DNA of 63,888 nucleotides, the filler included, from Atractiella rhizophila (taxonomy: Eukaryota), in assembly GCA_021432655.1 (NCBI GenBank). It is 5 parts of 5 records of this genome, joined end to end, with 100 filler letters (N's around TTAATTAATTAA, not from the genome) between each part and the next. Parts side by side here need not be neighbours in the genome. Positions count along the whole stretch, not along the records: positions 34,229 to 51,175 come from MU271886.1; 4 more parts are not named here. One strand, given 5' to 3'. Of the stretch, positions 7,347 to 62,722 are shown piece by piece. The translations under genes were made by a program, and so were the position numbers. A model generated the notes under the pieces. The model had not been told where the DNA came from and made no database searches. It saw only the letters and a program-made list of their open reading frames with translations. Each line of letters starts with the position of its first letter. Within the stretch, counting starts at the first letter, position 1.

Positions 7347-7347
7347 A

Positions 7348-15946: not shown

Positions 15947-15996
15947 ACACACGCTGTGGAGCGCTGTCGAGACCAAATCTGACTCAATTGCTCCCT

Positions 15997-17273: not shown

Positions 17274-17293
17274 CGTCCTCGCTTCTCATCAAA

Positions 17294-18449: not shown

Positions 18450-18949
18450 TCATGACTCATGCATGTCTTTTGAGCCCTTCTTTGCATGCAGCTCCACTCT
18501 GACTCGCTTCCAAAGGTTACTGAGAGGGGTGTGGGTGATGCTTTTGGCTAGGCTGAATCGTGTGCAATATGAAGTTTCATAAGTGACTGAGCCAAAAGCA
18601 AGACCTCATATCAGGGCAGAACGCTTACCCCAAGCGATGCTCGACGTTTCAAGACAGAGGGCATCTAGCGCTGTCCTGCCCCAAAACTGAAATGACAAGC
18701 AGACTTTTTTAGGAATTCGGCCTTGTCATGAAGTTCCTTGCCTGTATTGGGTGGAATTTTGAAGCAGAAGAGTTGTCGTTTAAAGGTCTGCAAATCCTGT
18801 TGAAGTTCTCATATACGAACCGTTCGAGAAAGGATTGTTCGAAATCAGAGAAATTATGGGGTGGTTTGGAGACGGAAATTGTTGGGAGGAAAGCTTTTCT
18901 GTTGGACAGGAGGGTGATTTTTGTGAATAGGTTGGGTATGTAGTCGTCA

Positions 18950-20094: not shown

Positions 20095-20435
20095 ACAGGA
20101 TCAGAGTTTCCAAATCTGGATTGGATGTGTGGGAGGCTGGGGTGATACCTGGGAAATGGTATTGGCTCCCAAATTTAACAGCAGATGCATTGGGCTGGTT
20201 TGGAGGGTAGTTAGAGAGAGAAGAGTTTTTCCGCCGATTAACTGCAGCTGCCCTGACTCTCCTGTGTGAGGTAGGAGATATCTTGGAAGGCTTAGAAAGA
20301 CAGATGGGGAGACTATGTGGTCATAGAGGGGCAGAGCAAAGAAGGAGGTATAAGAATAGGACTGATTTTGTGGGGCACGTGCGAGACGAACGAGGGATAC
20401 GAGGCGAACAAGGCGGAGACACATGCATTTAGGTT

Positions 20436-34128: not shown

Positions 34129-34228
34129 NNNNNNNNNNNNNNNNNNNNNNNNNNNNNNNNNNNNNNNNNNNNTTAATTAATTAANNNNNNNNNNNNNNNN
34201 NNNNNNNNNNNNNNNNNNNNNNNNNNNN
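34129..34228. other. Artificial contig spacer
   Basis: N run containing TTAATTAATTAA. Confidence 0.97.
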
Positions 34229-34924
34229 AGAAGAAGCACCAAGGGCAATGCTACAAAACAGTTACCCTTAGCAAGACTTCTAAGAAGGGACCAACCTGTA
34301 TGTGTTCAGCTGTGACAAAACAGCCAAACCTCCTGAGAGCTGTAAGGCGAGAAAGCTCCAAGCTTTTTGGTAGCTTAGCTGCCCTGCAGCGAGAGGGCGC
34401 CCCTTCGTCCGCGCTACATAGAGTATTCGATGAGCCTTCATCGAAACTGGTCAGTAAGGGACATACCGACCTTCGCGTCTATCCCCGAGTCCCACATGTC
34501 GTTGATGGTGCATCCTGCTCCTCGCATAATGACAGCTTCGTTGCGATAACATTAGTAGCCGCTTGGTTAAGCAAAAGAAGCGAACATACCTCCAAATCCG
34601 AACAAAGCAAGATTCCCCAACCACACGGATGGCGGGGCGTGAGATGAATAACACGCCATGGAGATTCCCCAAGCTACAACCATCTTAAGTACGCGTATAA
34701 GGAAAAAAACGTTTCATACTACAAGGAAGATAAAGCAGCCATGTTCCTATGGGTTTGTCCAGCCGCGCCAGCTCGAAATAGGGCTTCAGACCATGGAGGC
34801 GTGCGGGGAGTGTGAAAGAGCGTCGGGTCGTAGCATGCCTGAAAAGTGGGGATGAGTAGTTTAAGTGCGGTCGCGCACCGTTGTGAAAAGAATGGAGTGA
34901 AGTCCTAAGAGCCAGTCTGCTCAT
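34229..34924 (-). CDS. COQ2: 4-hydroxybenzoate polyprenyltransferase (UbiA family), 5' part
   Basis: Mitochondrial-targeting-like N-terminus, [49 protein letters not shown]. Confidence 0.93.
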
Positions 34925-35217
34925 GATACGATAGTTGTAGTTGAGTTGTTGTAATCATGTTCGATTAACAACATCACACCAGACTCAACCATTTCTAGCC
35001 TACGTTTGTAGCTGCTATATAAACCCAAGAATGTCCATGAGTTGATGACGGATAGTGAAGCTGTCGCCTTCAGGGAATCGTGTGAACACAACTGGAAAGC
35101 CCCTAAGATCCCGTGAAACTATGACAAGATATGATACGGATGAACAATAATATTACAAATCCTGGGAACCACATTACAGCTGAGAGAAACAGAAACCAAA
35201 GACGATATTCACCGAGT

Positions 35218-36973
35218 TTAGTTATCTAAGAGTAGACAGCTGGATTCGAGCAGTCTTTTAACTTTGTGACCCCTGATCTTATCATTCAGCAACTCAAGAG
35301 TAATAACTACCTCCTGCATACTCCCCTGATTATTTCTCCAGCATGAAAGACCGCTCGCCTCCAGTGCCATGGCGACGTCGTCGGGGCGTAGACCCAATGC
35401 CTTCCCAATTCCTTCAATGGTGAACGTTGTTTCAAAAGATTCTGGCTCCGGTCTGGCCTCTTGCGTCAACGGGGTCACCTTTTTCTGTCGAACAAATGGT
35501 CATTCACAAGAGCCTACAAGACAGCCAAAGAGGGAGATGCTTACAGATCGTTTTGATGCGGCCTTCTGCGGCAATGACGCAAGCTTGCCTGAAAACCCTT
35601 CGTTGGCAAGTGTCGTTCGCAAAAATTCCAGAACCTCTGTGGACCAAAACGCCAGATAGGCACGTAATCCGAGCTCTGAAAGCGGCCGCTCTGGTGTGCC
35701 CGCTACGCCAGGTTGTCTTTTAGATAGTTCATAACCTGTAGCAATATCAAACGCAGCCAGCCATTTGTACTAGAGGCGCACTGAATTCAATCAACATAGT
35801 TCCATAACTTCTGCCCTGGAACGGTGGGAAAATCACGATGCATGCCAGGTTATAATTGTCATACGATTCTTTCTCCTGTCAAATGGGTCAGGATTTGAAT
35901 ATTAGCCGAGCGTTGATCTACCTTGGAAAAGTAACCCAATGGCCAATCACAGGATCCTATTGATTCAGTCAAAATGTAAAACTATGATAAATCAGTGATT
36001 AGCTTAGGAATGTTTGAAAGAGCTATGCTGACCTTAAATCCTTCAACATCAAAGAACACGTATTTATGGTCGATAAACAGTTTTCCAAAAAGGCACAAGC
36101 ATTGACAGTATAGCTGACGGGCAAGTAAACATGGAAATATTGATTGGTGGACAGGGATATACCTTATTCACAGCTCCGTCAACTTCCCAGATGATGTGGG
36201 CACCATTCTGATAGACCTTCTTGCCTGGAGGATGCATATGATTGCAGCTTTTCTTCGCGCGCAGAATGTGAGATATCAGCCATAAACAGTAAACAGTTAC
36301 TCACACGATGAGCCGAATACTGTGAAGGCAAGGTGAAATACGCGAAGCATCCCCCGCAAACAAAAAGTTTGTCGATTGTTGGCTCGAATGCTCCTCCTCT
36401 TGTCACTTGGGGGACCTGAGATACTACGCCGCCGCTCAATGCGCGCATTTCGCGAGACATACGAGTCCCGCCAGTATTTACCCGAACACTCCCCTTTGAA
36501 ACAGACTTCCCATCTCCGTCATGAGAGAGCGGTTCCTCAGGAACTGACTGATATTGAGTGTTGCAAAATTGTTGAAGCATTCCGCGTACCGCTCACTGTA
36601 GCATCAGTTTCTGCAGCAGATCCTCGCGTCCCAGCGGTTGTAGAAGCGGAATGTAGCGCAGATGCCTTCTGCGTTTGTGCCCGCGATGAATCTGAGTAAC
36701 AACGTAAGAGCTAGTAGCGAAAAGGGGATGCAAACTTACTCGCTCCTCCAGTTTTAGAAGAGTACTCCTTTGCCAGAACAATATCTTCTTCCTGAAAAGG
36801 GAATGGAGATGGGTACCACGTAAAAAAGATATATGAGCACTGTTGACAATATCAGCTTTATCTGGTGGGATGCGAATTCCCACGTAGAAGACAGTATTGA
36901 TGCAATGATGCAAATGTGATTCTGGGTTTGATGAAGTCTGCAAATTGGTTTCCATTGACTGGGCAGCAGCCAT
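35218..36973 (-). CDS. MYST-family histone acetyltransferase (Sas2-like)
   Basis: TWYPSPFP, LFVCGGCFAY, HPPGKKVY, WEVDG, LFGKLFIDHK, GYFSKEK, NYNLACI..PPFQ..YG, FSYELS, GTPERPLSELG. Confidence 0.9.
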
Positions 36974-37024
36974 TTTCGTGTTGACGCGACGCGCGATGAA
37001 CAAGAGGCAATGAGATATAGAGGG

Positions 37025-37036
37025 AACCCTAACCCT
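37025..37036. promoter_or_regulatory. Telomere-repeat-like motif (AACCCTAACCCT) in a short bidirectional promoter
   Basis: Lies in the 154-bp gap between the divergent HAT and eIF1A start codons. Confidence 0.45.
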
Positions 37037-37127
37037 GATGATGAAAAGAGAATCGATCTGATCTCCTCCTTTGGTTGACGAATTGAATCGACGATTTTTC
37101 TGCAGGACCTAAAATAATCAGGAAATC

Positions 37128-37966
37128 ATGCCAAAGGTAATGTTACGGTCTCTTTCTTACTTGATTGTTACTTACATTCTTTTAGAACAAAGGAAAGGTC
37201 GGTTCCTGCCTTCGAGTCACCTGCTCGTTAGGAGCTGACAGCTGCTCAAGGGTGGCAAAAACAGACGAAGGGGAAAGAATGAGAATGAGTCTGAAAAGCG
37301 AGAACTTGTATTCAAGGAGGATGGTCAAGGTACCCCAACTTCTGGCGTGATCGCTTCCTTCTAGCCTAATTTCTCCGCCAGAATATGCCCAAGTGACAAA
37401 GATGTTGGGAAACGGGCGCTTGGAAGCATTCTGCTTTGATGGTGAGAAACGTTTAGCCCATATTCGAGGGAAAATGCGTAAGAAGGTTAGCTTTCTTCGT
37501 TCGTCATTGTGGTCACTGGTCGCTCATCATGGTTGCCTTGCTAGGTTTGGATCAACCAAGGAGACATCATTCTCCTGTCTCTCCGAGATTTCCAAGACGG
37601 CAAAGCCGACGTAATCCAGAAGTACTCATCTGATGAGGCTAGAAATCTCAAAGCTTATGGAGAATTGCCCGAAACTGGTTTGCTTTCTTTAGTGGGATCG
37701 ACTTCTACTAACAACAACCTGTAGCCAAAATCAATGAAACGGATACTTTCGGCCCAGAGGTAGATATTTCATTTGTTCATCGTGTTATCAAACTTACTGA
37801 CTCCGAATAGGACGAGGAATGCAACTTCGAGGTGAGTGCATCTGATCGCTTAGACCTTTCTGACATTATCCTCTTCCTTTCAGTTCGAGGAGCAAGGTAT
37901 GTGCATCGTCTCTCCACGGGTCCTTCTACTAACAGCTACCCTCCTTTAGACATTGATGATATTTAG
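37128..37966 (+). CDS. TIF11: Translation initiation factor eIF1A (9 exons)
   Basis: [62 protein letters not shown]. Confidence 0.96.
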
Positions 37967-38089
37967 ACTGTCGTTGTCTGCCCTTCTGTGTTCTGTGTCC
38001 TTTGTACAGTAGTGACTTTGTTTGTATCTGCCACAATCCAAGTAGGAGATGCACCATCAGCATCAAAATAGAATTACACTTGCACCAAT

Positions 38090-39620
38090 CTATGCGGTCT
38101 TGGTCATAAGATGTGGATGAAGCACATAATGAAAGGAGTTGTTGAGCTGGATGCCTTTCGTTAGCTCAATCACTTTCTGGTATGGTGACGGAGTGGAATG
38201 ATTCATATGGACGGCGTTCTAGCTTCACAATCAGGAAAGGGGAAAACCGTTATTAGCTGAAAATACGCACTTCTTTGAAATCGATTTTCGCATCGAGTCG
38301 GGCCTCCCGCACAAGGTTCACAATCCAGCGCTCGCCTTCCGCCTTAGATAGTCCCAGTCTGTCTGATAAATCGGCAATGTCTATCTTGCGATGAATTTTA
38401 CAGTAAACCTCCGAGACCAAGGCGCGGGCCCCTTCGAGGAACTCTTCCGAAAACTCATCCAAAAAGAAGTCCTGGCGCATCACATCTTCACATTTATCAA
38501 GTTCTTGTCGAGCCTGCTCGAAATTCACTTCTTGGTAAAGCTGGAAGACGAACTCGGTGATCGGGTCGGAATACTGATATTTTTCCTGCACGACGCCGCG
38601 AACAATCTCTCGGAGGGCATGATCAGCTGAACGCGAAGTATGACGCGATGATGGACTCGAAGACCTAGAGATGACGAGGGCGACCACAAGATAACGTAAC
38701 AAATGCGGCGAAGCTGTCTGAATCGCGTTCAAGTAGCTTTGAGAGAGCCAGCTGTCGACAAGAGCTGAGCGGCCGTTTTCCGCATTCCAGTAGACAAATA
38801 GACTCCAATGCAACCACCATGTTCGCTCCTTCAATCCGATTGTTCCTCCTCCACTCCCTCCCGTTGCTGCAGACACGGAACCGAATCGAGATTCAATGTT
38901 CTCTCGCAAGCGGTCCAGACCATCCAAAGCTGCAGTCCAGGAACCTTCCAAAATATCTGAAACCAGTTTGCCCCAAAGTGCAGATGTGACTAGCGCATTG
39001 TCGGGGGAGAGCACACAGAAATGGTAGAGGTAATCTGAGGATCCGCTGTAATGCCCAATTGTATATTGATAATGGCCAAATTGGTAGAGGTCATTTATTT
39101 GATCGATATTGAGCTGAGAACACCGTAAGAAAATCAGCGAGAGAGGAAGGAGACCTCACTCCATGATTGTCTTTCAGATAAGCTAAATTTTGCATCTTGT
39201 CTTGACGCAAAGCTGCAACTACTTCCGGACCAGAAATAACCTCCATGACTTTGACTGCTTTCTGTTGCAGATCGGCAAGCGTCTTGACAACTGATTCTTC
39301 CTTCTTTGCTAGATCTAGTTTCTTTCAAAACCCCAACTTGCGCCCCAACGAAAGCTGAGCACACCTTGATCAATTTGAGCTTCCTCGCTAGAGTTCTCAA
39401 TCCCCCTCCCAGCTCTAATCTCCTTCCTCAGATCCCTCAAATACGTTACCATATTAGTAGGTTTGAGCAGCTGAAACTTTGCCTCCAGCACCTCATCGTT
39501 TGTGCGAATGTTTTGCGAGGCAAGGAAGTCGAGCAGTGGTAAGGCGAGATGACGGTCCAAGTTGGGCAAAAGCTGGCTGGTGAGGTCGTAGGAGGACGAT
39601 GCGACTGCTTCTTGCGCCAT
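38090..39620 (-). CDS. INT6: Translation initiation factor eIF3 subunit e (PCI domain)
   Basis: YDLT..LDRHLALPLL.FL, TNMV.Y, ALWGKL, ERTWWLHWSLF, ERWIVNLVREARLDAKIDF. Confidence 0.93.
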
Positions 39621-39859
39621 GGCTACGAGTTACAATCTACCAAGATGGTCCACTCCAGAAAAAAAGTAAGTGTCCGTACACGGCGCACGCCACCGTACGT
39701 GTTGGGCTTAGTTTGCTGGTTCACTTTGCACAAAAGGGACAGCTGGAGCACTTGGGATGTTCATGACATTCAGGTCAAGAAATTATCAACTGCGAACTGC
39801 AAAGACTAGTTGCAAACAAAAACTTTAATAAACGAAACTGCAATAAACAGCGAACGGAA

Positions 39860-41117
39860 CTAAGTAGATGATTCCACTTCCATACCCTCCTCCTCCAACA
39901 CACCAGATTGTCTGCTTTCACCTGTACCGTCATTAACATCTGGAGAATCTAGACCAAGAGAATGCCCATAAACCAAAGCAGGATTGGCCGATACCGCGAG
40001 GACCGACGCCGTCCTATCTGCAACCTCGTCATCCCCGGCTCCGAGCTCTTGCAACTTTTGGGACTGGAGATAAACAATTTCTTGTAGATTTCGGATATAT
40101 TGGACCGTTTTCGTAAGAATTGACCCTTTGTTGAGCTTACTTTGAGCAGCAAGCGCTTGAGACGATTTCTGTCGTCCCTCTGGATCATCCAAATCCGGAT
40201 TAAATTCCAACATCGCTGGAGGGATCAATGTGGCAAGCTCGGCGATTCTGAAACTACTTAGTCAAGCCGAGTAGTAGGTTTAGACAAACCTCTCATTGAT
40301 GTTATCGCGTCGCCTGCGTTCAACCAAGTTCTAAGTTCCAGAATGTCAAGCTAGCGCTTTTGCAGTGAAGGAAATTCGTACATGACTTTCTCGCCTCTTC
40401 TTCTTCTTCTCTAACAAAACTTCGTTCCTATTCTCGACTATCAGTTCGACAGACCTTCAGAGGCATCGATACGCACAGGGAAACAGATTCCTCTTCTTTC
40501 CGCGGAAAAGACCGAGAACGAGTACCCTTGGACACTTTGGGAGCAGCAGCGACTCCCATGACCGGTGCACTCGCCGGGATCGTCTGGAGCCAATCATCTG
40601 GAGAACCGGAATAGCCAAACCCTGGCGATGGAGCATTGTTGAGCCAAGAGGAGGAGTAAACGGCGCTCGCGCCAGTGGTATTGGGAATGACAATCGCGCT
40701 CGTCGAATAGGACGTCGACGGATACGGTTGTCTCCCTCGTGTTGCGGGAGATGGCTTTCTCGTCATACCGGTCCGAGCAAGAGAGGCAACTGATGTCCTT
40801 CGGGTTGACATGAAGTCCTCAGAAAAGGGGGAGAAAGAGACTGGCGATTCGAGGGAAGGTGAAGCAGCATGCGTTGCAGGAGGTACATGGGTATGTGTAG
40901 GAAAATACGCTGCTGGATGAATCGGCTGATCCGACCTCACGTAGGGATCAGGGTTATAGTTGACAACATCGTCCCTCGTGCCGGTGCCTAAATCGTAAGG
41001 GCTGAAGTCGATGTAACCATTAGGTTGTTGATGAGTCCCTTCGGATGGGAGGGCGTGGTAGAAAGGCTGCTTGTTCGTAGGTTCTGTCAGGTCCTCCGCT
41101 CCAATGTAAAGAGACAT
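39860..41117 (-). CDS. bHLH transcription factor (Rtg3/MiT-TFE-like)
   Basis: KKKKRRESH|NLVERRRRDNINER|IAELATLIP ... LNKGSILTKTVQYIRNLQ. Confidence 0.88.
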
Positions 41118-41176
41118 CTTGAAGACAGTTTCCCGTCGTTGTTGCTGTTAGTGAATGGAAAAGGAGACACTGGGTC

Positions 41177-41187
41177 TAGGGTTAGGG
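41177..41187. promoter_or_regulatory. Telomere-repeat-like motif (TAGGGTTAGGG) in a very short bidirectional promoter
   Basis: Lies in the 98-bp gap between the divergent bHLH and RNB start codons. Confidence 0.45.
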
Positions 41188-41215
41188 CCTCCAATTCATC
41201 CGCGAAAAGTGATTT

Positions 41216-44200
41216 ATGAGCTCCCTTTCCCTCCCCTCCGCCCTCTTACGATGTCACACTCTTCCACGTGCAGTTCCCGGACGGCGCCCCATCAGTAGCC
41301 TTCGTGGAGAATCGCGCTGCTTTCACTCCGAAGCTCTTCCTTCGACGAACAAGTCGCGTCGCTGGTCAGACAGCAAATCGTCTCTTGCCCACCTCAAAAA
41401 TGATTCCTCCACTGCAGAAAGAGACGGTAATCCTGATTTACGGCGGAGGACAACTACCCGAAGGTCACGACCCGTGACTTTCCAGCGAACGGGTAAAGGA
41501 TTCGATCTCGAACACTTCCTGTCGTCCGCACTTTTACGTAGTAGCGAAGTGCCTGCTCTTTCGTTGGATATACCGGACGATCGAGTGAAGTCGCCTGAAC
41601 TGCATAAACAACACTATGCACAGGATATTCCTCCCGCCAAGAGCGTCGGGACGTTCAAACAAGAAGAAGTTAAGGAGGGTGAAGACTTGGACGATAGCAT
41701 AATCGAAGATGGATGGACGTTGCGCGGCAGAGTCGGGTCCAGAGAAGGTGAAATCAAATTCGGTGTCGCTCCTCTCGGGAGCTGGGTGGAATGTGGAAAG
41801 TGAGTTAGCTGCCTCGCGCCAGTTCGTGAGCTGACAAGCTCCCAGGCGTAACCGCAATGGTGTCCTACTCGAGAGACACGGCAACCGCCCCTCCTGTGTC
41901 TTCCATCACGTTGACGGTGTCGGCACACTGTCTCCTTCGGCAGTTCAGATCGTTATTCCTAATGTTGTGCCACTGAAACTAGCTGAGGCTGTGTCGACCT
42001 GTCTGAAGTCAGGAACCAGTATGGATACTCATCGAGTGGAGCTTGCAGACCATTGCCGCGCCTTCGAGCTTGACGTGGAGAAAGAAATGAAGCGGATATC
42101 CCACATAACTCACGAGACTCTCTATAAAAGATTGAGAGACCGCGATCCAAGAAAGGCGAGGAGAGTGACGTTGGAAGATGTCGCCCAAGCGATGTCAACT
42201 TTCTGCGCCGACTTCGCAAACTCACCCTCGCCAGCGAAAAAACTGGCAGTTTATAGACATCTGATTCGAGCGGACACGTACTTTTTCCACAACCCATTAG
42301 GCCAGACTACCTCCACTACCTTCTACGTTCAACCTTGGGAAGAACACCTCGAATTCCGATGTGTGGAGAGATGGGTGCAAGAACACTCGATTGAACTCAA
42401 TAACTTTCACATGAAAGTTCGGCAAGCTCATGCCTCTCGTCAACAATCCAATACGCCTAGCTTGCCGCCTTCTCCCTCTGCAGATCAACGCCTCCAGTTA
42501 AGTGCTACTGACTGGATACTTATCCGGTGTCTCTTGCGGCATCTGCTTTATTCGACGCGAGACCAGGCGTCTGCCTATGAGCTCATTGTTTCCAGGATCA
42601 TTGGCCCAGTAGTAGATGTTTTAGGTTTCTCGCAACAGTCCCTCATAACCCATGACAGCGTTACTTTCGACCTTCTCGTGGTTCTAGGAGTCTTTCAACC
42701 CTGGGAGTCAGCTGCGAGACTCAAATCCCACGCGATCATGAAATATTCAAACGGGAATTCCTTGAATTTCATAGGGAAGGGCGAGTTAGATGACTTGCTG
42801 CCCTCGATCGGTCACTCTGTGACAGCGCGGAAGAAAGATCTCATTCTCGAAGATGCGCACGACAGTGTTCGTCATGACTTCGGCCAGTTGCGTTACATTA
42901 TCATTGATGATCTGGACGCCCGAGAACTTGACGATGCGCTGTCGATCGAACCGGGGTTATTGCCTGGCACCAACTGGGTACATGTGCATATTGCAGATCC
43001 TACGAGGTACATTCAACCTGACCATCCACTCGTTACTCGTGTCCTGGAGCTTGGCTCCACCCAGTACACACCTGGAGATGTGCTCTCGATGCTTCCTTCC
43101 TCCTTTCTGGAAAGTTGTCGACCCAGTCTGGAAGGCAGAGCACGAGACTGTGACTTCCAAGTTGCGTTGACATTTAGTGGACTAGTAAGCGAGACTGGAG
43201 ATCTCCTTGAGTACCGGATTCGTCCGTCAATTCTTCGGAACCGAAGAGCCACGACTTATGATCGTGTAAACGTAATTTTGGGGATCCCAACACAAAGACC
43301 GTCGCCTGTCTTGCAACTCAATTGGTCCGAAGTGTACCCAGCGTCAACGCCGACGCGTGAACTTGACCATGTGGACGACTGTCAAGAAGACATTGTGATG
43401 TTGTCTAAAGTGCTAAAATCTGTTGCACGTCGACGCGTACAGGCTGGACTTGGATCCCAGTGGTACCTTCCAAGAGCTAATATTCTTCTTCGCGATCCTC
43501 CTGCACCCTCAAGTCTTGGCCATGGTCAAGAAGTGGCAAACACAACCGATCCCTCTATAGCCATTATTGTGGATTCAATGGAACAGCTTCAGACCTTTTC
43601 GGCTCAAACCATTGTTCAGGAGGCTATGGTACTCGCTGGCAGTATTGCTGCCCACTTTGCTCAGGAGAAAAACATTCCGGTGTTGTACCGTACCTTTGAA
43701 CCTGAGCCGGAGCAGCAACATCTGTGGGAGGAACGTTTACGCTACAGAAATCCGGAAACTGGGACGATCGGCTGGAAGGACCATCTACGACTTCCCGCGC
43801 TGCAGAAAGCTATGGTTAGCTGGCGGACCCAATCTGGGCCGCACTTTCAGCTGAACTTATCCAACGGCTACATGAAAGTCACCAGTCCCCTGAGGAGGGT
43901 TGAAGATTTGCTCGCCCATTGGCAACTGAAAGCTGCTCTGCTACCAACCTCCGCTTTAAAAATCAATCAGCATCCATTTACGGCTTCGCAACTCGATGCG
44001 TATGCGGCATACATTAGCCCTCATATCAAAGCGGCAAAAAGCGCTGAACGCTACAGCTCGGCGGCTTGGCTCAGCTATGTTGTGTCCCGCACTCTGAATT
44101 CGGACAACCCTGATGGTTCAGAAGCTAACCTGTTGCAGAACCTCACGGCATATGCAACAGAAGGTCCATCTTCGGCGAAGGGAGATACGGAACAGCGCAT

Positions 44201-44345
44201 GATGATCGAGGAGTTAGGCGTGTTGGCTAGGGTGGACCTGAGTGGGAATCCGGGTTTCCCAATTGGGTCCAAGGTAAAAGTCGCAGTTTCAGGTGTCGTT
44301 TCTGGTAACACACCGCGCTTGATTTGTCGACTAAACGGTGTATGA
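41216..44345 (+). CDS. RNase II/RNB-domain exoribonuclease (mitochondrial Dss1/Cyt-4-like)
   Basis: RHDFGQL.YIIDD.DARELDDALSIE, WVHVHIADP, QEAMVLAG, GPHFQL..Y.KVTSPLRR.EDLLAHWQ; Arg/Ser-rich N-terminus. Confidence 0.9.
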
Positions 44346-45394
44346 ACTGTATATCACAATCATCCAGCATTAGCACTCTGCTCGGTCAGTAGATCGATAG
44401 ATTGCGTGATAAGTCTATTTGCGTGGAAAAGCGCCACTTGATCAATATTTCGTGGGAAGAAAACTAAACCTAGTAATCAGAACTCTTGGTAATTGCTAAT
44501 GTGAGGCTTGATGTGAGTAGAAGCTAATTCTGGAATGACTGGATCGCAAAAGCGTCATAACTTGGCATTTTGAAAAACAAATCTGACATCATTTTCACCG
44601 CGAACTCAGCTTTGGTTGGTGGTCAGCCGAATCTAAGAACTGTAATCAAATGTTCACAACTGCGTCACTCTGAACTGCAGATAGATTCAGCTGCCCAGCC
44701 ATATCCCTGTTCCACATTCAGAAAGTAATAGCCATGCTGAGGTGTCACTGCCTGTAGCCTCCTGTCTATCATCCTGTGTTCAGCTCTGTGACCCTTCAGG
44801 CGTCCTCATGTGAGAGAACATCTGAATCCAGATGAGAGTGTATCCCTTAGTATGGTTGTGTTCAGCTGGTGATAACTAGATGAGGTCAGCCATTTGTCAA
44901 CTATATCCGGATGAGTTGGGATTTTGATCCATCTGAATTGAGATCTGTATTCATCTGATGATGAGCTGTGTCTGGACTCCCATTAGCCGATGTCAGCATT
45001 ACCCTCATCTGTGCGCATTTGGGTTGTCAGGCTGCCTTGGCCAGGATTATGTGATACTCTTGGTTGCATTTCTGTACATGCCTGGGTGCAACTGGATACA
45101 TTGACTTGAGTGAAATTATTCTGTTTTTACCATTTCACTGCACTTCTCCTGCTGCTTTTACTGACACTTACTATTTTTCAGAATCATAACAGTGTCTTTC
45201 TTTCAATGCTTATTACATTAGTATATTACAGAGATTGTTCACATTGTAGATCAAACCTCATGAAAATAACAAGTTAGCTGACACCTACATCAGTTAGGAA
45301 ATTTGAGAAGCTTACAGCTTTATCAGGTTGCCTACTAGTATTATACCAAAAGTGTATGTGCCTTTAAGCTTGTATAATTAATGAGGATACATAT

Positions 45395-45532
45395 ACCTAA
45401 GAGACAGGAGGCAGTGGTCAAAGATGATGGCCACCAAACAGCCTCCTAGGAAGGAAAACTATAAAGTGAGTTCACACAATACAGTTGGCTGATCACAAAG
45501 ACAACGCCATGCAAAGTAACACCTAATCCAGC
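45395..45532 (-). mobile_element. Degenerate copia-family LTR remnant
   Basis: Similar to the reverse complement of LTR 50385-50552 (GGTCAAAGATGATG...CCTAGG...ACACCTAATCCA). Confidence 0.6.
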
Positions 45533-45974
45533 TAATATAACACTCTATCTAACATGGGCCTCCTTCACTGTTACCTCTATGACAAAATTTTGATTCAGAT
45601 GTCTCCATAGCTTGTATAGCATCTAGAAGATGTGCTCCTGTGCTCCTACAGCCATAGCCTCCACTCAGTGACATCTATAAGACAAAAGCATGATGGGAAC
45701 AAGAGGTAGTTAATAGATGCTACATGCCTAGTCTTTGATTCCTCAACTCACCGGCTATTCTTCTAGCTGGACTGCTAACTTGACCTGTAGGATACATGTT
45801 GTATGGACTAGTGATAAAACATGATGTTTTTATGATTCAATCAACAGATGAACAATAGATGCAAAGTTTGAATGAAATATCTATATGCTTGCTGAGGTAG
45901 AGTGAGTGGAAAGGGATGAGTCAGGCATTGTTGGTAGTTGCCTCAATCCACTGTTGGCTTATGTGACGACAGTA

Positions 45975-46249
45975 TGAGAGAAATGGAGGCTTGACGAAGC
46001 TAGGGGACAGCAGTTGGTCGTCAAAGATGATGACATTGATAAGGAAACACATACCTAGGGGACAGGGATTGATGGTCAAAGATGATGACTGCCTAAACTG
46101 CCTCCTAGGGGTAAATTGGTGGTCAAAGATGATGACTGCCTAAACTGCCTCCTAGGGGTAAAAACCATGAAGTGAGCAAACACAACAAAGCAATAAAGGT
46201 GGCTGACCACACAAACATAAGACCATGAAATGTAGCACCTAATGCAACA
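45975..46249 (-). mobile_element. Solo LTR of the copia family with 5-bp TSD (CAGTA)
   Basis: TG...CA ends; homologous to the reverse complement of 50385-50552; CAGTA at 45970-45974 and 46250-46254; internal tandem repeats of the GGTCAAAGATGATGAC block. Confidence 0.8.
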
Positions 46250-46742
46250 CAGTATTTATTTCCTCAATTACCTCAAGGTTAAGATCTGTGATACCACCTG
46301 GAGAAGCATTGATATGAGAGGCAGTTGTTACATCTTTTATCTGGAAATAAGTGTGTCCTTCTTAACAAGTATGCCACAATACCCAACTAATTATTCGTTT
46401 ATCAGTTTGTAAAATTTGACAAAACAAATAGTAACTCCTCCTGCTCCTGGATCCACCTTCTTCATCTCTAGCATACCTCAAATGGCTTATCAATATAGCT
46501 GAACCATTCCTTGTCCCAGATCCCCTTAATGCTAATGTGATGGGTCGTAGAAGCTATAGCATGATACTATCAAATGGTCATTAAGCTTTAGTCGGCTATG
46601 AGAAAACTCAGTAATGACGTACGAGAAATATGTTACGAGCATCTACTAGCGTTATGCTGAGGTCGCTTTGTTAATTCGTTAGATTGGCAAGAGTAACAAG
46701 GAACCATTTGGAGTTGTTGGAATCTGCAAACTGACAAATTCA

Positions 46743-49700
46743 CATTTCTATGAAGATCGGACATTTGAAACTCAAATTTATCAATATGGCTGAAGAAAGT
46801 AAAAATTTGATCACCCCCTCGGAGAGCAGGGCTATGGCACCTGGTGCATTGTTATGCAGGCAGAATTGAAGCAAAAGGGGTTATGGAGATAGTCTCTGGA
46901 GTAGAGACAAAGCCAGAAGACTTGAAAGAGCAAAAGCAGTGGCAAGAAGACAGCTCCAAAGCAGCTAGAATCCTGTTTCTTAGCGTGGAAGCAACCCAGA
47001 AAGCCCATGTGGCCGGTGTCCTTCAAGATCTGGTCAAGATATGGTATGCTCTTCAAGACATACACCAACAGAAGCGCTCCTCCACACTCTCCTTGAAGGA
47101 AAAGTGAATCCCTCATCACCGTGTGTGCCAGAAGTGACCAACTGTTCCTGGACTTCACCAATATGCTGTCCAAGGACTACTCCCTCAATAATTTGAAGGG
47201 AATACACTAGTTTTGTCCAGAACATCACCCTCATGACCTCCACTGACCTTCAATCGATCAAACAAGCAATCTACTCAATCCAAGCCACAAAGAACTCAGA
47301 AGGTAGCCATCTCCAACACTCAAATAGCAAACCAAGCATCCAACAGCACCAGAGGATGAGGAGGATGGTGTCCCAGAGATGGTAAGGGTGGAGGAAGAGG
47401 TGGAACTCAAGATTTTTCACAACCAGTGTGCAACTACTGCCATAGGAAGTTGTGTCTCATTGCCCTGAAACCCCACTGGACACAATAGAATCTATTAGTT
47501 GTTGTGTTGTTTTGGTCATCTGCCGCTTATGACTCTTATGAGTCATCACTATGCCTGTAGTTTGATTCTGCCTAGAAGTATTGGTGCTCATTGTTGACCA
47601 CCAACTACTCCTAGCCTTAGATCCTTACAAGAAGCAACACAGGGTCTTTAATAGGTCAGCAGAGACTAGGGAGAAGGAGATATTGGGTAGAATCAGCTCA
47701 GACCTACATGCTGGATTTAGCCAATTGCACTAAAATGACCAGTCATTCCCAACAGTGCGGATTAACCCTTTATACCCAAGGTTCAACACCCTTCCCTAAT
47801 CTGTACTGTCTGCAACCACTTTCTCTGCCACAACCATTTCCTTCCATCATTTATAGTGGGGAAGAGCACCCGCTCAACAGCTTTTATAGTGGTTTTGCCC
47901 CACTCTCACAATATGGCTAAAGTGCTCAGACAGGGGTTCGAACCCGGACATGCAGGGTCAGCTCTCGCTACCATGCTGGATTTAGCCAATTGCACTAAAA
48001 TGACCAGTCATTCCCAACAGTGCGGATTAACCCTTTATACCCAAGGTTCAACACTACATGGACCTCTTCCAGTCACATCCAGAGAAGGAACCTTCAAGAA
48101 TTGGGTAGAGAATGTCGCTGGGAAGAAGATCAAGAAGTTTAGAGAGGACAAGGAAGGTGCTTATTGCTCCAAAGAATTCGATCAATACCTCAAGGCCTGT
48201 GGTATCCAGCGTGAACAAACTATCAGGAACTCTCCTCATCAGAACGGCAGAGCAGAGCGAGCCAATAGGACGATTCAGGAGACTATGGTCGCCATGTTTG
48301 AAGAATCGGGACTTCCACTCTTTCTCTGGCCATCTATTGCTTCAGCGGTCGTCCACATTCGCAACAGATCTTCCTCAGCTTCGATCAACCATGCTATTTG
48401 CCACGCGAAACTCACTGGACTTACTCCAACCATCTCAAGATTCAAAATCATTGGATGCACTGCCTACGTTCAAGTTCAGAAGGATGAAAGGGCACACAGC
48501 TTAGGATCTCATACACGAAAATGTGCATTTATAGGTTATTCCCTTGCAGCAAAAGGGTGGGAGTTCTGGGATCCTGTTGGAAAGAAGGTCTACACTCGAG
48601 ATGTTGCCAGATTTGATGAGAGAGAGATGCTCTGCAAGGTGAGGAAGGAGAAGATTACGTTGGAAGAGCCACAGGGACCACTTGATGAGTGGAAGGAGTG
48701 TCAGGATCAGGTGGGAGAAGGACAGAATAATGCTCCAGCCGCTCCTCCAGCTAGGATTTCACTAGATGACGACGATGAAGAAGAAGAAGGATGGATTCAA
48801 CAGCCAGGAGCACCTCCTACACCTCAGGAACAACTCAGACCGCTTGGAATACAGTCTCCAAACAGATTTCATCCCCTTGAGGTTGAAGAAGAACAAGATG
48901 AAAAAAGAGAACAGTCTCCAGACCCCCTACAGCTCGTACCTGAACGGCCTAATACACCCCCACCTCGTCAGTACACCATGCAGAGAGATCCTTGGACAGG
49001 AGTTCACATGCCTAGATTCTCAGAGTCTCCAGATCCCCTCCAGATCTGTCCAACAACACCAGATCAACCTCCTCCAGCAGCTTCGATACCTCCCCCTGTC
49101 ACCAGGCCTTCAAGAATTTATTCTACGAGTAGAGGACGACCTGTCGACAGATTTAGGACCCCAGAAGCGCCTCAAAACAACGACGAAGGGTCAACAGACG
49201 AGCTTGGGATGTTGGTAAAGGAATGTGACATCCTCACTGAGCCAGGGCGATGGAATACGGCTATATGCTTGTCACAGAGCATGCCATGAGTGCAGCAACA
49301 GGAGTAGAGGTCCCTCAGTCATATTCAAGAGCGATGGCAAGCCCTAATGCGAAGGAATGGCATGAAGCGACAGTGAAGGAGATTCAATCTCACTTGGACA
49401 ACAAGAGTTGGATTCTGGTCAAACCGCCTAAAGGAGCAAAAATCGTTGGTTCTCGATGGGTGTTTGCAGTTAAGAAGAAGTCGGATGGTTCTATTGAACG
49501 CTTCAAGGCCAGATTTGTCATCAAGGGGTTCTCTCAACGCCATGGATTCAACCACTTTGATACTTTCGCATCTACGGTCAAATGGGCGACACTTAGGACG
49601 ATTCTTTCGCTCGCTTGTGTCCTGGACATGGAGTTGGAGTCAGTGGATATCTCTACGGCATTCCTTAACGGTGATATGGATGCAGAGGTCTATGCACAAC

Positions 49701-50384
49701 AACCAGAAGGTCATCCACAGGGTCCTCCAGAGTACGTTCTGAAGCTAATCAAGGCCATCTATGGCACAAGGCAAGGAGGGCGTCAATGGCAGAAGAAACT
49801 CGATAAGGAACTCATTGATATAGGATTTAAGAAGATCAAGAGCGACTCTAGTCTGTGGATTTACTCAAAGGGGGACATCAAAGTACTTGTCCCAGTCTTT
49901 GTGGATGATATTATGATCGCTAGCACATCCAAGGGTGCTGTGGAGAACTTCAAGAGGGAGTTAGGGAAGCGATTCAAGCTCAGAGACCTTGGACCAACGG
50001 AATTCCTACTTGGGGTTCGTATTAGGAGGGATAGAAAGCGAAGAATGATGTGGTTGGATCAAGAACAGTATGTCAAGGACCTCCTAGAACGCCAACAGAT
50101 GGACAACTGCAACCCTGTCCTCACTCCTCTCAACGTTGGACACGGTCTCAGCAAGCAGGACTGCACTCAGACAAAGGAAGAACAAGAAGAAATGCGCACA
50201 ATCCCTTACAGCAACGTTGTTGGCTCTATGATGTACTTGGCCATCTCCACTCGTCCGGATATCGCTCACGCAGTCTCTGTCCTCGGAAAATACCTCTCTA
50301 ACCCAGGAAAGAAGCACTGGGAAGCGGCCAAGCATCTTCTATGATACCTCAAAGACACTCAGAATTTAGGAATCGAGTATTCTG
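46743..50384 (+). mobile_element. Decayed Ty1/copia LTR retrotransposon (gag fragment, integrase, RT)
   Basis: Frameshifted gag from 46787; integrase SDL|HGPLP, KFRED, PHQNGRAERANRTI; RT IVGSRWVF, RFKARFVIKGFSQ, DISTAFLNG, VFVDDI, TRPDIA. No 5' LTR found; interrupted at 47709 and 50385. Confidence 0.92.
47709..48053 (-). mobile_element. TRIM (terminal-repeat retrotransposon in miniature), 345 bp, non-coding
   Basis: Identical 80-bp LTRs at 47709-47788 and 47974-48053 (TG...CA); TSD CTACA at 47704-47708 and 48054-48058; PBS TGGTAGCGAGAGC (47973-47961); PPT AGGGAAGGG next to the 3' LTR. Confidence 0.93.
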
Positions 50385-51175
50385 TGTTGGATTAGGTGTT
50401 ATATTTCATGGTGTTATGTTTGTGTGGTCTAGCCACCTCTGTTTTGTTTGCTTCACTTCGGAGTTTTAGCCGCCTAGGGGGCAGTTTAGGCGGTCATCAT
50501 CTTTGACCACCAATCTCTGTCCCTTAGCTCCATCCAGCATCAGATTCTCTCATGGTAGCGAGAGCGATGGCTAGGGATTGAGAGATCAATTTTGCCACCC
50601 ACTTGGTTGAAAATTTTGATCACTCAGCCATCCGTTGTCCAATCGGTTTGAAACTTTGGGATCATAAACGAGACCCCCTTACGCCTATATCCACCCATTT
50701 CTATGAAGATCGGACAATTGAAACTCAAATTTATCAATATGGCTGAAGAAAGTAAAATTTTGATCACCCCCCTTGGAGAGAAGAACTATGGCACCTGGTG
50801 CATCGATATGCAAGCTGAATTAATGTGAAAGGGGCTATGGGAGATTGTGTGTGGAGAGGAGAAGAAGCCTGCTGATTTGAAGGAGGGAAAGCAATGGGAA
50901 AAGGAGCGCTCTAAAGCGGCAGGACTGCTGTTCCTTAGCCTGGAATCCACCCAGAAAGCTCATGTGGTGTCTGTCATTCAAGATCCGGTCAAGATCTGGT
51001 CCACCCGTCAAGAAATCCATCAGCAGAAGAGGTCTTCCACGCGTTTTTCGTCCCTAAGCGCCCTGCTTGCTCTCCAGAAAAAAGAAGATGAATCCCTGGT
51101 CACCCTCTGTGCCAGAAGCGACCAGCTCCTTCTGGACTTCACCAATACCCTGTCCAAGGACTATTCCCTCGATAA
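50385..51175 (+). mobile_element. Second copia element, nested in the first: 5' LTR (50385-50552), PBS (50553-50565), gag from 50739; cut by contig end
   Basis: TGTTGG...TCTCA followed by TGGTAGCGAGAGC; gag NYGTW..M.AEL.*KGLWEIV.G, with a stop at 50826-50828. Confidence 0.88.
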
Positions 51176-51275
51176 NNNNNNNNNNNNNNNNNNNNNNNNN
51201 NNNNNNNNNNNNNNNNNNNTTAATTAATTAANNNNNNNNNNNNNNNNNNNNNNNNNNNNNNNNNNNNNNNNNNNN
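51176..51275. other. Artificial contig spacer
   Basis: N run containing TTAATTAATTAA. Confidence 0.97.
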
Positions 51276-52610: not shown

Positions 52611-54090
52611 CTACTCATCTTCTTGGTCTTCCCATTCTTCTGCCTCCTTTAACACCCTGCAGAACCCCTCAGCGCCACCCCACGGATGCGTACTACCCAG
52701 AAGCATCCCCTTCCAGTCCACTCCACGAAAGAAGGACATTTCCATGACTTCATCCTCCTTCTTCTCGCCACATCCCAATCTCTTTTTCCATTCTTTCTCC
52801 AAAAACCTCTTCAACAATTGTTGAACGTCTTGGGGAAGAGCTGAGAAAGTTTTCGGGAATGGCACCGAGTCGAACGAGGAGATAGCGAAGTACAACTCGA
52901 CATTCTCTGGGTCATTACTGTTGCGAAGTGTGAGTACGGTTAATGTGGGTGTTGCATGTTTCGAAAACTGCATACCTATCTCTCGTGTACGGTAATGCTG
53001 CAAGGCACATTTCGTATGCGACAAGCCCAACACCCCACCAATCAGGAGCAGCCAGCCTCCCCTTCTCTTTCCTCGCGTCAATAAACTTAAGAACGCTCCC
53101 GGGTGCCACGCTCTCGATCCATGCACTGTGGACCAACTCTGGAGCCGTATATTCCGGTGTTCCGTTGAGCTGACAGTCCGATATGTGGTCGGTGGACGGA
53201 GGAACGATAATACACGATCCGAAGTCTCCCAGGACCAACGAACCTGTGATTGGATGGAGGAGCATATTTTCTGGTTTAATGTCACGATGATAGACGTTTC
53301 GGTTGTGTAAAAAGGAGACTGCCAAGACGAGTTGGGAGAGATAGAATCGGATGGTGGAGTAGTCCTGAAGGGAGCTTTCCATTGTCAAGCGTGGCAAGAT
53401 ATTAAAGACCGTAAGGGAAGACATGAGTGGGAAGACGAGGGAGGACGTGTATTCGCTGTAAAAGTGACCCTGGAATTCGAGGATGAAGGGATGAGATCCA
53501 AGTCGTCGAACCTCTTCGCACATCTCTACTTCGTGATCGAAGTGGCGAATCTCCTCTTCCGTCGAAGGCGTCACGCGTTTGATCGCAAACACTCGACCGC
53601 CCTTCTTCATGCTCGCTCGAAAGATCTTTCCAAACTTCCCATGCCCTTCTTCTGCTTCAGAAATATCGAAATCATCTTCCCGGATACTTTGGAGTGCATC
53701 GGTTGCAACAAGGGAAAGCACTCGATCAGCGAGATCCAGAGGTTCTTCGGATTCGTGAGAGAGAGGTAGCAACGGGGCGTAAATTAGTTCTGGAGACAAA
53801 GGAGGCTCCAATGGGAAGCAGTCTAGGGATAATGAGAGAAAATCGTCTTTCTCCTCTATCATTTCAACGACAGAAGAGGACGAAGAAGACAAGAGTGCCG
53901 GACGCTTGCATCGAAGAGAGTCAGCACGTTTCAGGGAGCTTGGGTGCTTTCGCTTTCCTTTCTTCACATATGGGGATCCATTGTGATACGCGTAATCGTT
54001 GGGAGGTCGAAAGGTCCAAGTCTTCAACGCCAATGACGACTTTAAGGAGCTGAGTCCAAGGTGCAAGTCAGCTTGAGTTGACGCCTTCAT
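52611..54090 (-). CDS. Ser/Thr protein kinase (AGC-like), two exons
   Basis: GHGKFGKI, FAIK, HRDIKPEN, DFG, GTPEYTAPE, DWWGVG; the intron at 52919-52976 joins to KRLG..FFRGVDW. Confidence 0.9.
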
Positions 54091-55092
54091 GACTATGACC
54101 TAGAATCGATCGAGACCCGGTGTAGGGAGTTCTGCAACTGCACGAGCTGCAGGGCAAGGGTTATATAGGACACCAGGATGATATTGAACAGTGTTTGGAT
54201 GGCATTTGCAGGGTCAAAAGATCAAGGGAGCAAGCAATGCATGAGAGCTTGTGAGCGGTAAACAAAGGTAAAGTTCACAACAGAGTTTCCACGTGCACGA
54301 CTCCGCGATATGAGTTTTTATTAACCTTAGTGTAAATTGTCACAATCAACCAACAACGACGGTGCAAAGACTAGAAAGGGAAACAAGGAAGGCACGGGAG
54401 GGTAGTAAATATATATTGAGCTGAAACAGGTGAGGATCTCTTTTCTGTACAGCGGAGTAGGTTTCGTGTCGAAAGGATGATTCGTAAAAGGTTTGAGCCC
54501 TTGCCGTCAGAGCACGTCTTATTTCCTGGATTCTCTCCTTGAGCTCACTGGAGCAATGAATCCGTAAGGCGAGACGAAGATGAAACCTCCGCTTCTACAG
54601 TGTTTCTTGCGGAACGCGGCAGTTGCGGTCCAAATTGGCTTAGGCGTCTTTTCCTCACACCAGCAGTAGCAACGAAGTGTACGCCCAGTTTTAGTACAGC
54701 TCGTCCTCAAACCTGCCTGTGAGTTTGTGGAAAGTGCACGCAAAGGTTTTGGAGACATGTATACGCCCATGGTTGGCCAAGCTCGACCGCCTGCAGATTC
54801 AAGGCAGACGAGTGGATACAGATGGATTTTTCCTTTGGGTAGATTATCCCCGTCCCTTCTGCACTATGTGTAGGAGGCCCAACGCGCTGTCGTTAAGCTT
54901 AATCGTCAGATTCGTATGGATGGCGGGTTAAATTGCAGTGACGCTGCGGGCAGAAGAGAACAATTGTGAAGAAGCGCAATAGCCGCTGAACCTGATCGAC
55001 TGAACTGTTCCATTCATTTCTTTCTTGTGAAACGATCGCTAACATTGTGCATCGCGCGCTCAGGTGTTCAACCTAACAGTAGAGTCAACAAG

Positions 55093-62622: not shown

Positions 62623-62722
62623 NNNNNNNNNNNNNNNNNNNNNNNNNNNNNNNNNNNNNNNNNNNNTTAATTAATTAANNNNNNNNNNNNNNNNNNNNNN
62701 NNNNNNNNNNNNNNNNNNNNNN
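62623..62722. other. Artificial contig spacer
   Basis: N run containing TTAATTAATTAA. Confidence 0.97.

What the first reader, a model, noticed from the sequence alone, without database searches (positions are those of the whole stretch)
47704..48058. A complete 345-bp fungal TRIM retroelement with identical LTRs, inserted into a copia integrase
Seen: two identical 80-bp direct repeats (47709-47788, 47974-48053) with TG...CA ends and a perfect 5-bp TSD (CTACA). On the minus strand a PBS (TGGTAGCGAGAGC) directly follows the 5' LTR and a polypurine tract (AGGGAAGGG) directly precedes the 3' LTR; the 185-bp interior carries no retroelement coding domain. Removing the element and one TSD restores the copia integrase motif SSDLHGPLP. 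Established: this is the TRIM architecture, characterised mostly in plants and animals. Inference: identical LTRs within an otherwise decayed host imply a recent insertion of a non-autonomous family that may be undescribed in fungi.
Basis: partly seen in the sequence, partly recalled or inferred. Interest (0 to 1): 0.85.

Follow-up and report, generated by a model that had tools for sequence, protein, structure and literature searches.

The report
Miniature LTR retrotransposon in Atractiella
A 345-base non-coding retrotransposon with two 80-base terminal repeats sits inside a dead copia element of a root-dwelling fungus and belongs to a many-copy family: a well-formed, unusually small example of a kind of mobile element already known in fungi.

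Summary
Two identical 80-bp TG..CA repeats sit at 47709-47788 and 47974-48053. A 5-bp CTACA duplication flanks them. On the minus strand the PBS TGGTAGCGAGAGC abuts one repeat and the purine tract AGGGAAGGG abuts the other, around a 185-bp interior. Leaving out the element and one CTACA restores ..ISSDLHGPLP.. in a decayed copia pol.

Contigs of a pure-culture run pair carry the interior at about 18-21 times single-copy depth and the repeat higher still. They also carry the empty site in sister copia copies. It is therefore a family, not a one-off deletion.

The host is Atractiella rhizophila, by a 100% protein match. The same PBS primes a copia element 2.5 kb away and five rust-fungus TRIM families in Kojima 2024.

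TRIMs with 5-bp duplications and copia partners are already described in fungi, so this is a new member of a known kind. Its repeats are shorter than any TRIM repeat I found in print. Identical 80-bp repeats date the insertion only to under roughly 18 million years. A box-A/box-B-like pair straddling the PBS is unexplained.

The parts
47704..47708 (.). target-site duplication, left copy (CTACA)
   Evidence: single CTACA in the empty-site joint
47709..47788 (-). 3' LTR of the element (sense strand = minus), 80 bp, TG..CA
   Evidence: 80/80 identical to 47974-48053
47789..47797 (-). polypurine tract AGGGAAGGG, directly upstream of the 3' LTR
   Evidence: read from sequence
47789..47973 (-). 185-bp non-coding interior. 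On the sense strand it carries two copies of CCACTATAAA and no TTTT run.
   Evidence: (D2); no Pfam domain over it in the one frame tested (protein 1)
47934..47945 (-). perfect 12-nt palindrome GGGTTCGAACCC, which matches the Pol III box B consensus GGTTCGANNCC, 16 nt downstream of the PBS
   Evidence: the only box-B matches of the whole window lie in this element
47961..47973 (-). primer-binding site TGGTAGCGAGAGC, directly after the 5' LTR
   Evidence: same 13-mer after the copia LTR at 50553; same first 12 nt open five rust Helenus interiors
47974..48053 (-). 5' LTR, 80 bp. On the sense strand: TATAAA at 48039-48034, TTTT at 48000-47997, box-A-like TAGTGCAATTGG at 47997-47986.
48054..48058 (.). 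target-site duplication, right copy (CTACA)
46700..50384 (+). host: decayed Ty1/copia element A. It has gag-side stops and an integrase remnant split by the insertion. SH3-like domain at about 48417-48629; RVT_2 at about 49400-50131. It is cut in the RNase H region by the next LTR.
   Evidence: RVT_2 E 4.2e-58; SH3_retrovirus E 8.9e-19; rve E 0.013, profile 56-102 only
50385..50565 (+). 5' LTR (TGTTGG..TCTCA, 168 bp) and PBS of a second copia element B of the same family; candidate type of autonomous partner
45975..46249 (-). solo LTR of the same copia family with 5-bp TSD TACTG, showing that this family makes 5-bp duplications

Best explanation
This is one copy of a multi-copy, non-autonomous LTR retrotransposon of the TRIM/SMART type in Atractiella rhizophila (Pucciniomycotina). 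Its sense strand is the window's minus strand: 5' LTR (80 bp, with a TATAAA box) - PBS for the 3' end of initiator tRNA-Met - 185-bp non-coding leader - 9-nt polypurine tract - 3' LTR. It encodes nothing. Inferred mechanism: its RNA is packaged, reverse-transcribed from the tRNA primer and integrated by the Gag-Pol of an autonomous element. That element is most likely a Ty1/copia family such as the abundant one it landed in, which has the same 13-nt PBS, the same TGTTG LTR start and the same 5-bp target duplication. Shown here: the architecture, the clean insertion with its empty site, and the multiplicity. Inferred: the identity of the helper, Pol II transcription from the LTR, and current activity.
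For: Architecture. Precise insertion: the reading frame is restored, and an empty-site joint 47703->48054 occurs in 2 contigs of X1, with a matching loose end. Multiplicity: unique flank contigs with 0 differences have depth 151.1 (X1, 351 nt) and 129.7 (X2, 466 nt). The X2 contig 47760-47871 (3' LTR-PPT-interior, 0 differences) has depth 2718.7. The X2 contig 47916-48001 (interior-PBS-5' LTR, 2 differences) has depth 2288.4. Summed depth over interior bins 47792-47955 is 8,460-19,158 in X1 and 2,764-8,439 in X2. Over the LTR bins 47710-47791 it is 32,518-47,023 in X1 and 19,810-23,049 in X2. Interior variants exist at high depth: 47881 C>T with a 1-nt gap at 47897 (2600 of 4805 in X1), and 47948/47949. 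A soil metagenome of another study (X3) holds a 266-nt contig that closes on itself after 265 nt, that is one LTR plus the whole 185-bp interior, with 2 differences. Private G at 47759: nearly all other LTR copies carry A there, and both LTRs of this copy carry G, as expected if both were copied from one template. Helper: same PBS after the copia LTR at 50553; solo LTR of that family with a 5-bp TSD; RVT_2 ORF of 367 aa still open. Five rust TRIM interiors start with TGGTAGCGAGAG. [quoted passage not shown] I did not check which families Figure 3 assigns to that primer class.
Against: No second full copy with its own flanks and TSD was seen directly. No genome is held, there is no other copy in the 64-kb window, and two exact-word scans of JGI metagenome contigs found 0. 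Depth of de Bruijn contigs is only a rough multiplicity, and the tool itself warns that it is no copy number. Only 20 of 1,226 laid pieces were listed. X2 showed no contig with the window's own letters at 47759 or 47948. Beyond the PBS plus 2 nt there is no similarity between the element and the copia family, so the helper is not pinned. Fungal Ty3/gypsy elements can also use tRNA-iMet and make 5-bp TSDs (recalled). Expression is not shown: the RNA-library contig (X11, 47709-47884, depth 3.55) may be DNA.
Confidence: 0.85

Rival explanations
1. The element is a TRIM driven by RNA polymerase III (a 'TRIMp3'-like variant). A tRNA-type internal promoter is split by the LTR boundary: box A sits in the last 24 nt of the LTR and box B in the leader 16 nt after the PBS. 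Only the 5' LTR context would then form a complete promoter.
For:: the sense strand carries TAGTGCAATTGG (47997-47986) and GGTTCGAACCC (47944-47934), 53 nt apart. This is the only such pair in both strands of the 63,888-bp window, and all 3 box-B matches of the window lie in this element. Only 8 of 400,000 strand tests on mononucleotide shuffles gave a pair. The sense interior has no TTTT; TTTT occurs only in the LTRs. Kojima 2024 describes Pol III-promoter TRIMs (Helenus) in rust fungi of the same subphylum. T-arm-like GGGTTCAAT motifs occur in some of their interiors (read).
Against: The motif definitions were chosen after looking, and the box consensus is recalled. ARAGORN finds no tRNA, and Rfam finds nothing at E up to 10, even on the element alone. 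I could draw no acceptor or anticodon stem by eye. The box-A-like site is partly palindromic and reads similarly on the other strand. The TTTT lies just upstream of box A, where a Pol III start would meet it within about 10-20 nt. The LTR has a canonical TATAAA for Pol II. The palindrome could instead be an RNA dimerisation site.
Confidence: 0.15
2. A one-off internal-deletion derivative of a full-length autonomous element that shares these LTRs, not a family of its own.
For: There is only one copy in the window. LTR depth exceeds interior depth 2- to 9-fold, so the LTR could also belong to other elements. No second flanked copy was seen directly.
Against:: every 41-bp bin of the interior has summed depth of at least 19x single copy in both runs. 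Contigs bridging both LTR-interior junctions lie at 18-21x. At least two interior variants are each at more than 10x. An independent soil sample closes the 265-nt LTR+interior cycle. The excess of LTRs is what solo LTRs give in known TRIM families (Kojima Table S3).
Confidence: 0.04
3. The family is mobilised by a Ty3/gypsy element rather than by a copia element.
For: PBS type and 5-bp TSD do not separate the two superfamilies in fungi (recalled: Ty3 uses tRNA-iMet and makes 5-bp TSDs). No sequence similarity to the copia family exists beyond PBS+2 nt.
Against: There is exact 13-nt PBS identity plus a shared TGTTG LTR start with a copia family that is very abundant in the same genome. For rust TRIMs, Kojima 2024 found PBS-region similarity only to Copia. 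No gypsy element was examined here, so this is open rather than excluded.
Confidence: 0.12
4. Assembly artefact or local tandem duplication.
For: Short repeats can be mis-assembled, and no listed contig spans the whole stretch.
Against: The PBS and PPT sit at the right places, the ends are TG..CA, the 5-bp TSD is exact and the host frame is restored. The same LTR-interior unit occurs in 4 of 4 runs laid.
Confidence: 0.01

Closest known systems
SMART / FRetro129 of grasses (Gao et al. 2012, PMC3281118; passages read)
   Same: Very small non-coding LTR element with short identical LTRs, TG..CA ends, 5-bp TSD, PBS and PPT. It has tens of complete copies plus solo LTRs. Its putative copia helper shares PBS/PPT but not the LTR.
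   Different: FRetro129 is 292 bp with 85-bp LTRs and a 122-bp interior, and it is confined to grasses. This element is 345 bp with 80-bp LTRs and a 185-bp interior, in a basidiomycete. Sequence similarity was not tested.
Helenus (TRIMp3) families of rust fungi and some Agaricomycetes (Kojima 2024, PMC10886601; abstract, sections 1 and 3, figure legends and tables, and supplement parts 1, 10 and 11 read)
   Same: Fungal TRIMs of 311-724 bp with 5-bp TSDs and LTRs starting TGTTG/TGTTA. Copia is the inferred helper. Five families open with TGGTAGCGAGAG, the PBS seen here. LTR copies outnumber interiors severalfold.
   Different: Helenus is defined by a tRNA-derived sequence inside the LTR, and its LTRs are 104 bp or longer in the whole Table S1 (106 or longer in fungi). 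Here the LTR is 80 bp and no tRNA is detected. Only a box-A-like site in the LTR and a box B in the leader are present. The paper names Microbotryum, Leucosporidium and Rhodotorula as taxa without Helenus outside Pucciniales; Atractiella does not occur in its supplement.
Generic TRIMs annotated in fungal genomes, e.g. Boletales (PMC5689174, passages read); other papers seen only in the search listings
   Same: Same class label and non-coding LTR-PBS-PPT-LTR plan.
   Different: Those are pipeline classifications without element-level description. No paper found pairs Atractiella rhizophila with retrotransposons (0 papers). One search gave 2 papers, both general reviews by their titles and abstract starts.
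Cassandra (5S rRNA in LTR) and retrozymes (hammerhead ribozyme in LTR; recalled)
   Same: Non-autonomous LTR elements of small size.
   Different: No 5S or hammerhead match in Rfam at E up to 10.

Membership tests
[quoted passage not shown] | total length under 1000 bp with two direct terminal repeats | tested here: met
   345 bp; 80-bp repeats 100% identical, TG..CA
TRIM | PBS complementary to a tRNA next to the 5' LTR | tested here: inconclusive
   Position and sequence fit. The 13-mer is identical to the PBS of a copia element in the same contig and, in its first 12 nt, to the start of five rust TRIM interiors. The paper says several fungal families use the tRNA-iMet 3' end. Complementarity to the host's own tRNA could not be checked: there is no tRNA gene in the window and no genome is held.
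TRIM | polypurine tract next to the 3' LTR | tested here: met
   AGGGAAGGG, 9/9 purines, abutting the LTR
TRIM | no coding capacity for Gag/Pol | tested here: met
   The interior is 185 bp. One frame was scanned with Pfam within protein 1, with no domain there; the other frames were not scanned.
TRIM | target-site duplication and an empty site | tested here: met
   CTACA on both sides; joint 47703->48054 in sister copia copies; frame restored
TRIM | a family of copies mobilised in trans | tested here: inconclusive
   Multiplicity is supported by contig depth of 18-21x and above, and by interior variants. Individual flanked copies were not seen, and trans-mobilisation is not testable here.
Helenus / TRIMp3 | tRNA-derived sequence (boxes A and B) inside the LTR | tested here: not met
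   ARAGORN gives 0 and Rfam gives 0 matches at E up to 10. Box B lies outside the LTR. Alignment to the paper's DataS1 sequences was not run.
Cassandra / Ajax | 5S rRNA-derived sequence in the LTR | tested here: not met
   no Rfam match
SMART (FRetro129 family) | sequence homology to FRetro129 | not tested
   No FRetro129 sequence was on hand. The resemblance is in plan and size only.
Ty1/copia (host element) | RVT_2 reverse transcriptase downstream of the integrase | tested here: met
   RVT_2 E 4.2e-58, SH3_retrovirus E 8.9e-19; weak rve E 0.013 covering profile 56-102 only; order IN then RT on the + strand

The most novel reading that the evidence does not exclude
The element is a new variant of Pol III-promoter TRIM. 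A tRNA-type promoter is split across the LTR boundary, with box A in U5 and box B in the leader after the PBS. A complete promoter then exists only at the 5' end, which would allow the LTR to shrink to 80 bp, the shortest I found in print.
Probability: 0.15. Interest if true: 0.6.

Novelty: new member of a known kind. Interest (0 to 1): 0.3.

Why it matters
It adds a clean, probably young TRIM/SMART-type family to Atractiellomycetes, a fungal class for which I found no transposon literature. It extends the rust-fungus picture (copia-dependent TRIMs, tRNA-iMet PBS, 5-bp TSD) to another branch of Pucciniomycotina. Its 80-bp LTR is shorter than the 85-bp LTR of SMART and than every LTR in Kojima's Table S1. 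It is therefore a compact natural test of how little sequence an LTR needs for transcription, strand transfer and integration. For annotation, such elements are missed by LTR finders with default minimum LTR lengths (my recollection). They can also split ORFs, as here.

Tried and rejected
Own-genome search: no genome is held, so copies could not be counted by BLAST.

Window-wide BLASTN of the element, LTR and interior found no other copy. The only hit was the 15-nt CA+PBS at 50551-50565.

Earlier findings of this scan, by sequence, place and words, gave nothing.

Exact-word scans of JGI metagenome contigs with a 26-mer and a 22-mer of the LTR found 0 loci each. This says nothing about absence.

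A tRNA, 5S or ribozyme origin found no support from ARAGORN or Rfam.

Derivation of the leader from the neighbouring copia leader is not supported, because there is no similarity beyond the PBS.

The RNA fold of the putative transcript gave z = -2.05, with 3 of 100 shuffles folding as well. It is mildly structured and nothing can be drawn from it.

The X11 RNA-library contig does not show transcription.

Primer read-through into tRNA-iMet as the source of the T-arm-like motif was rejected by eye. The 15 nt between the PBS and the motif do not continue a tRNA complement (recalled initiator tRNA features).

A formal alignment to the Helenus sequences of the paper's supplement was not run, because sequences from outside the session's stores are not to be typed into tools.

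Full report
**What is in the sequence**

Positions 47709-47788 and 47974-48053 are identical over 80 nt. They start TG, end CA, and are flanked by CTACA on both sides.

On the minus strand, TGGTAGCGAGAGC (47973-47961) follows one repeat without a gap. AGGGAAGGG (47797-47789) precedes the other without a gap. The minus strand is therefore the sense strand.

The plan is 5' LTR 48053-47974, PBS, 185-bp interior, PPT, 3' LTR 47788-47709. The total is 345 bp. Eighty identical bases 265 nt apart, bracketed by a 5-bp duplication, cannot be chance.

**The host site**

- Leaving out the element and one CTACA gives ..EKEILGRISSDLHGPLPVTSREGTFKNWVEN.. in one frame.
- Downstream in the same strand lie an SH3-like retroviral polymerase domain (E 8.9e-19) and RVT_2 (E 4.2e-58).
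- The integrase core scores only weakly (rve E 0.013, profile positions 56-102 of 102).
- The host is thus a Ty1/copia element that has lost part of its integrase and carries stops in its gag side.
- It is cut in its RNase H region by the 5' LTR of a second copia element (50385-50552, TGTTGG..TCTCA). The PBS of that element (50553-50565) is the same 13-mer.
- A solo LTR of this copia family at 45975-46249 (minus strand) has the 5-bp duplication TACTG.

**Where the window comes from**

The window is several contigs joined by N44-TTAATTAATTAA-N44 spacers. The element's contig is 34229-51175, which is 16,947 bp.

An 836-aa RNB-domain ORF on that contig is 100% identical to an NCBI protein named for Atractiella rhizophila. 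The contig of that protein is also 16,947 bp long. No whole genome is held for the window.

**Is it a family?**

The window has no second copy, so I used public runs. Two runs of one coded organism (X1, X2) hold the unique left flank without a difference, at contig depth 151.1 and 129.7. I take these as the single-copy baseline. The evidence against that baseline, all, is as follows.

- An X2 contig covering 3' LTR-PPT-interior (47760-47871, 0 differences) has depth 2718.7.
- An X2 contig covering interior-PBS-5' LTR (47916-48001, 2 differences) has depth 2288.4. Both are about 18-21x baseline.
- Summed depth over the interior bins is 8,460-19,158 in X1 and 2,764-8,439 in X2.
- Summed depth over the LTR bins is 32,518-47,023 in X1 and 19,810-23,049 in X2.
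- Interior variants are each present at more than ten-fold depth: 47881 C>T with a 1-nt gap at 47897 (2600 of 4805 in X1), and 47948/47949.
- A soil metagenome from another study (X3) holds a 266-nt contig that closes on itself after 265 nt. That is one LTR plus the whole interior, with 2 differences.
- An RNA library from roots (X11) holds a 176-nt contig over 47709-47884.

The tool warns that summed contig depth is no copy number, and only 20 of 1,226 laid pieces were listed. I therefore read this as 'tens of interiors, more LTRs', not as a count.

The excess of LTRs over interiors is what solo LTRs produce in described TRIM families. For example, Table S3 of PMC10886601 gives 158 LTRs to 75 interiors and 529 to 144.

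**Support for this particular insertion**

Two X1 contigs join 47703 to 48054, skipping 350 nt. A loose end after 47710 continues GACCTCTTCCAGTCAC. This is the uninterrupted copia sequence with a single CTACA, from sister copia copies.

At 47759, nearly all LTR copies carry A (43,443.8 of 43,760.4 in X1). The remainder with the window's G is 316.6, about twice single-copy depth. This fits the two LTRs of this one copy sharing a private base, as expected when both are made from one template. In X2 this remainder was 0, which I cannot explain beyond incomplete contigs.

**Age**

With 80 sites and the fungal rate of 1.05e-9 per site per year quoted in PMC5689174, zero differences excludes only ages above about 18 My at the 95% level (my arithmetic). 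'Recent' rests more on about 20 copies sharing identical 112-nt stretches. That also allows up to a few million years.

**How it most likely works**

The element encodes nothing. Its LTR has a TATAAA 15 nt from its start. Its PBS is that of the initiator tRNA-Met 3' end. [quoted passage not shown] It also fits the same 12 nt opening five rust TRIM interiors.

I infer the standard TRIM cycle:
1. Transcription from the 5' LTR.
2. Packaging by a helper's Gag.
3. tRNA-primed reverse transcription with PPT-primed plus strand.
4. Integration with a 5-bp duplication.

The best candidate helper is a copia family like the host one. It has the same 13-nt PBS, the same TGTTG LTR start and the same TSD length. 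Its depth in the runs is very high, and its RT frame is still open. There is no similarity beyond the PBS plus 2 nt, so the helper is inferred, not shown. A gypsy helper is not excluded.

**An unexplained detail**

The sense strand carries a box-A-like TAGTGCAATTGG in the last 24 nt of the LTR. A perfect box B, GGTTCGAACCC, lies inside the 12-nt palindrome GGGTTCGAACCC, 16 nt after the PBS. The two motifs start 53 nt apart.

- It is the only such pair in the 63,888-bp window.
- All three box-B matches of the window lie in this element.
- Only 8 of 400,000 shuffle tests give a pair.
- The sense interior lacks TTTT.

This recalls the Pol III-promoter TRIMs (Helenus, 'TRIMp3') of rust fungi, but there both boxes lie inside the LTR.

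Against it:
- The motifs were defined after looking.
- ARAGORN and Rfam see no tRNA.
- A TTTT lies just upstream of box A.
- The palindrome could equally be an RNA dimerisation site.

I give the Pol III reading 0.15.

**Comparison with what is known**

TRIMs are not new to fungi. They appear in many fungal genome annotations (listings; passages of PMC5689174).

Kojima 2024 (PMC10886601; abstract, sections 1 and 3, legends, tables, supplement parts 1, 10 and 11) describes 113 Helenus families in Pucciniales. They have 5-bp TSDs and inferred copia helpers. Full lengths in fungi range from 311 to 724 bp in Table S1.

The grass SMART FRetro129 is 292 bp with 85-bp LTRs. The present element matches these in plan and probable mechanism.

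It fails the defining Helenus feature, a tRNA-derived sequence in the LTR. Its 80-bp LTR is shorter than any LTR in Table S1 (minimum 104, fungal minimum 106) and shorter than SMART's.

I found no paper on retrotransposons of A. rhizophila (0 papers; 2 general reviews). Repbase and Dfam could not be searched.

**Verdict**

The TRIM reading and family status are supported. The claims of novelty for fungi and of recency are overstated. It is a new member of a known kind, of modest interest, with one small oddity worth a bench test.

Noticed in passing
window 17079-17178, 34129-34228, 51176-51275, 62623-62722: The window is not one molecule. It is at least five contigs joined by N44-TTAATTAATTAA-N44 spacers. 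Neighbourhood arguments hold only within 34229-51175 for this finding.
   Followed up: yes
window 1-90 and 17179-17268: Telomere-type repeats (AACCCT)n at the starts of two of the joined contigs. These contigs are chromosome ends.
   Followed up: no
window 3933-7346 and 7345-10887: About 3.5 kb duplicated in tandem at 90-100% identity, near a telomere. Content not examined.
   Followed up: no
window 45975-46249 (minus), also 45414-45530: Solo LTR of the host copia family with TSD TACTG and internal duplications of its 3' part (LTR positions 90-144 and 110-169 repeated). A further LTR fragment lies upstream.
   Followed up: partly
window 50385-50565: A second copia element (LTR + PBS) starts exactly where copia A breaks off in its RNase H region, giving a nested or recombined copia pair. 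It runs off the contig end at 51175.
   Followed up: partly
window 47587-47627 and 48120-48500: The host copia family is extremely abundant in the runs. Summed depth reaches 194,196 in X1 against a single-copy depth of about 150, with many variant contigs.
   Followed up: no
window 47845-47859 and 47878-47892: On the sense strand the interior carries two copies of CCACTATAAA, that is two more TATAAA boxes besides the one in each LTR. Role unknown.
   Followed up: no
window 41835-44345 (+) and 52915-54099 (-): Host genes: an RNB-domain exoribonuclease ORF (100% identical to an A. rhizophila protein of 1027 aa, so the gene has further exons) and a protein-kinase ORF on the next contig.
   Followed up: partly
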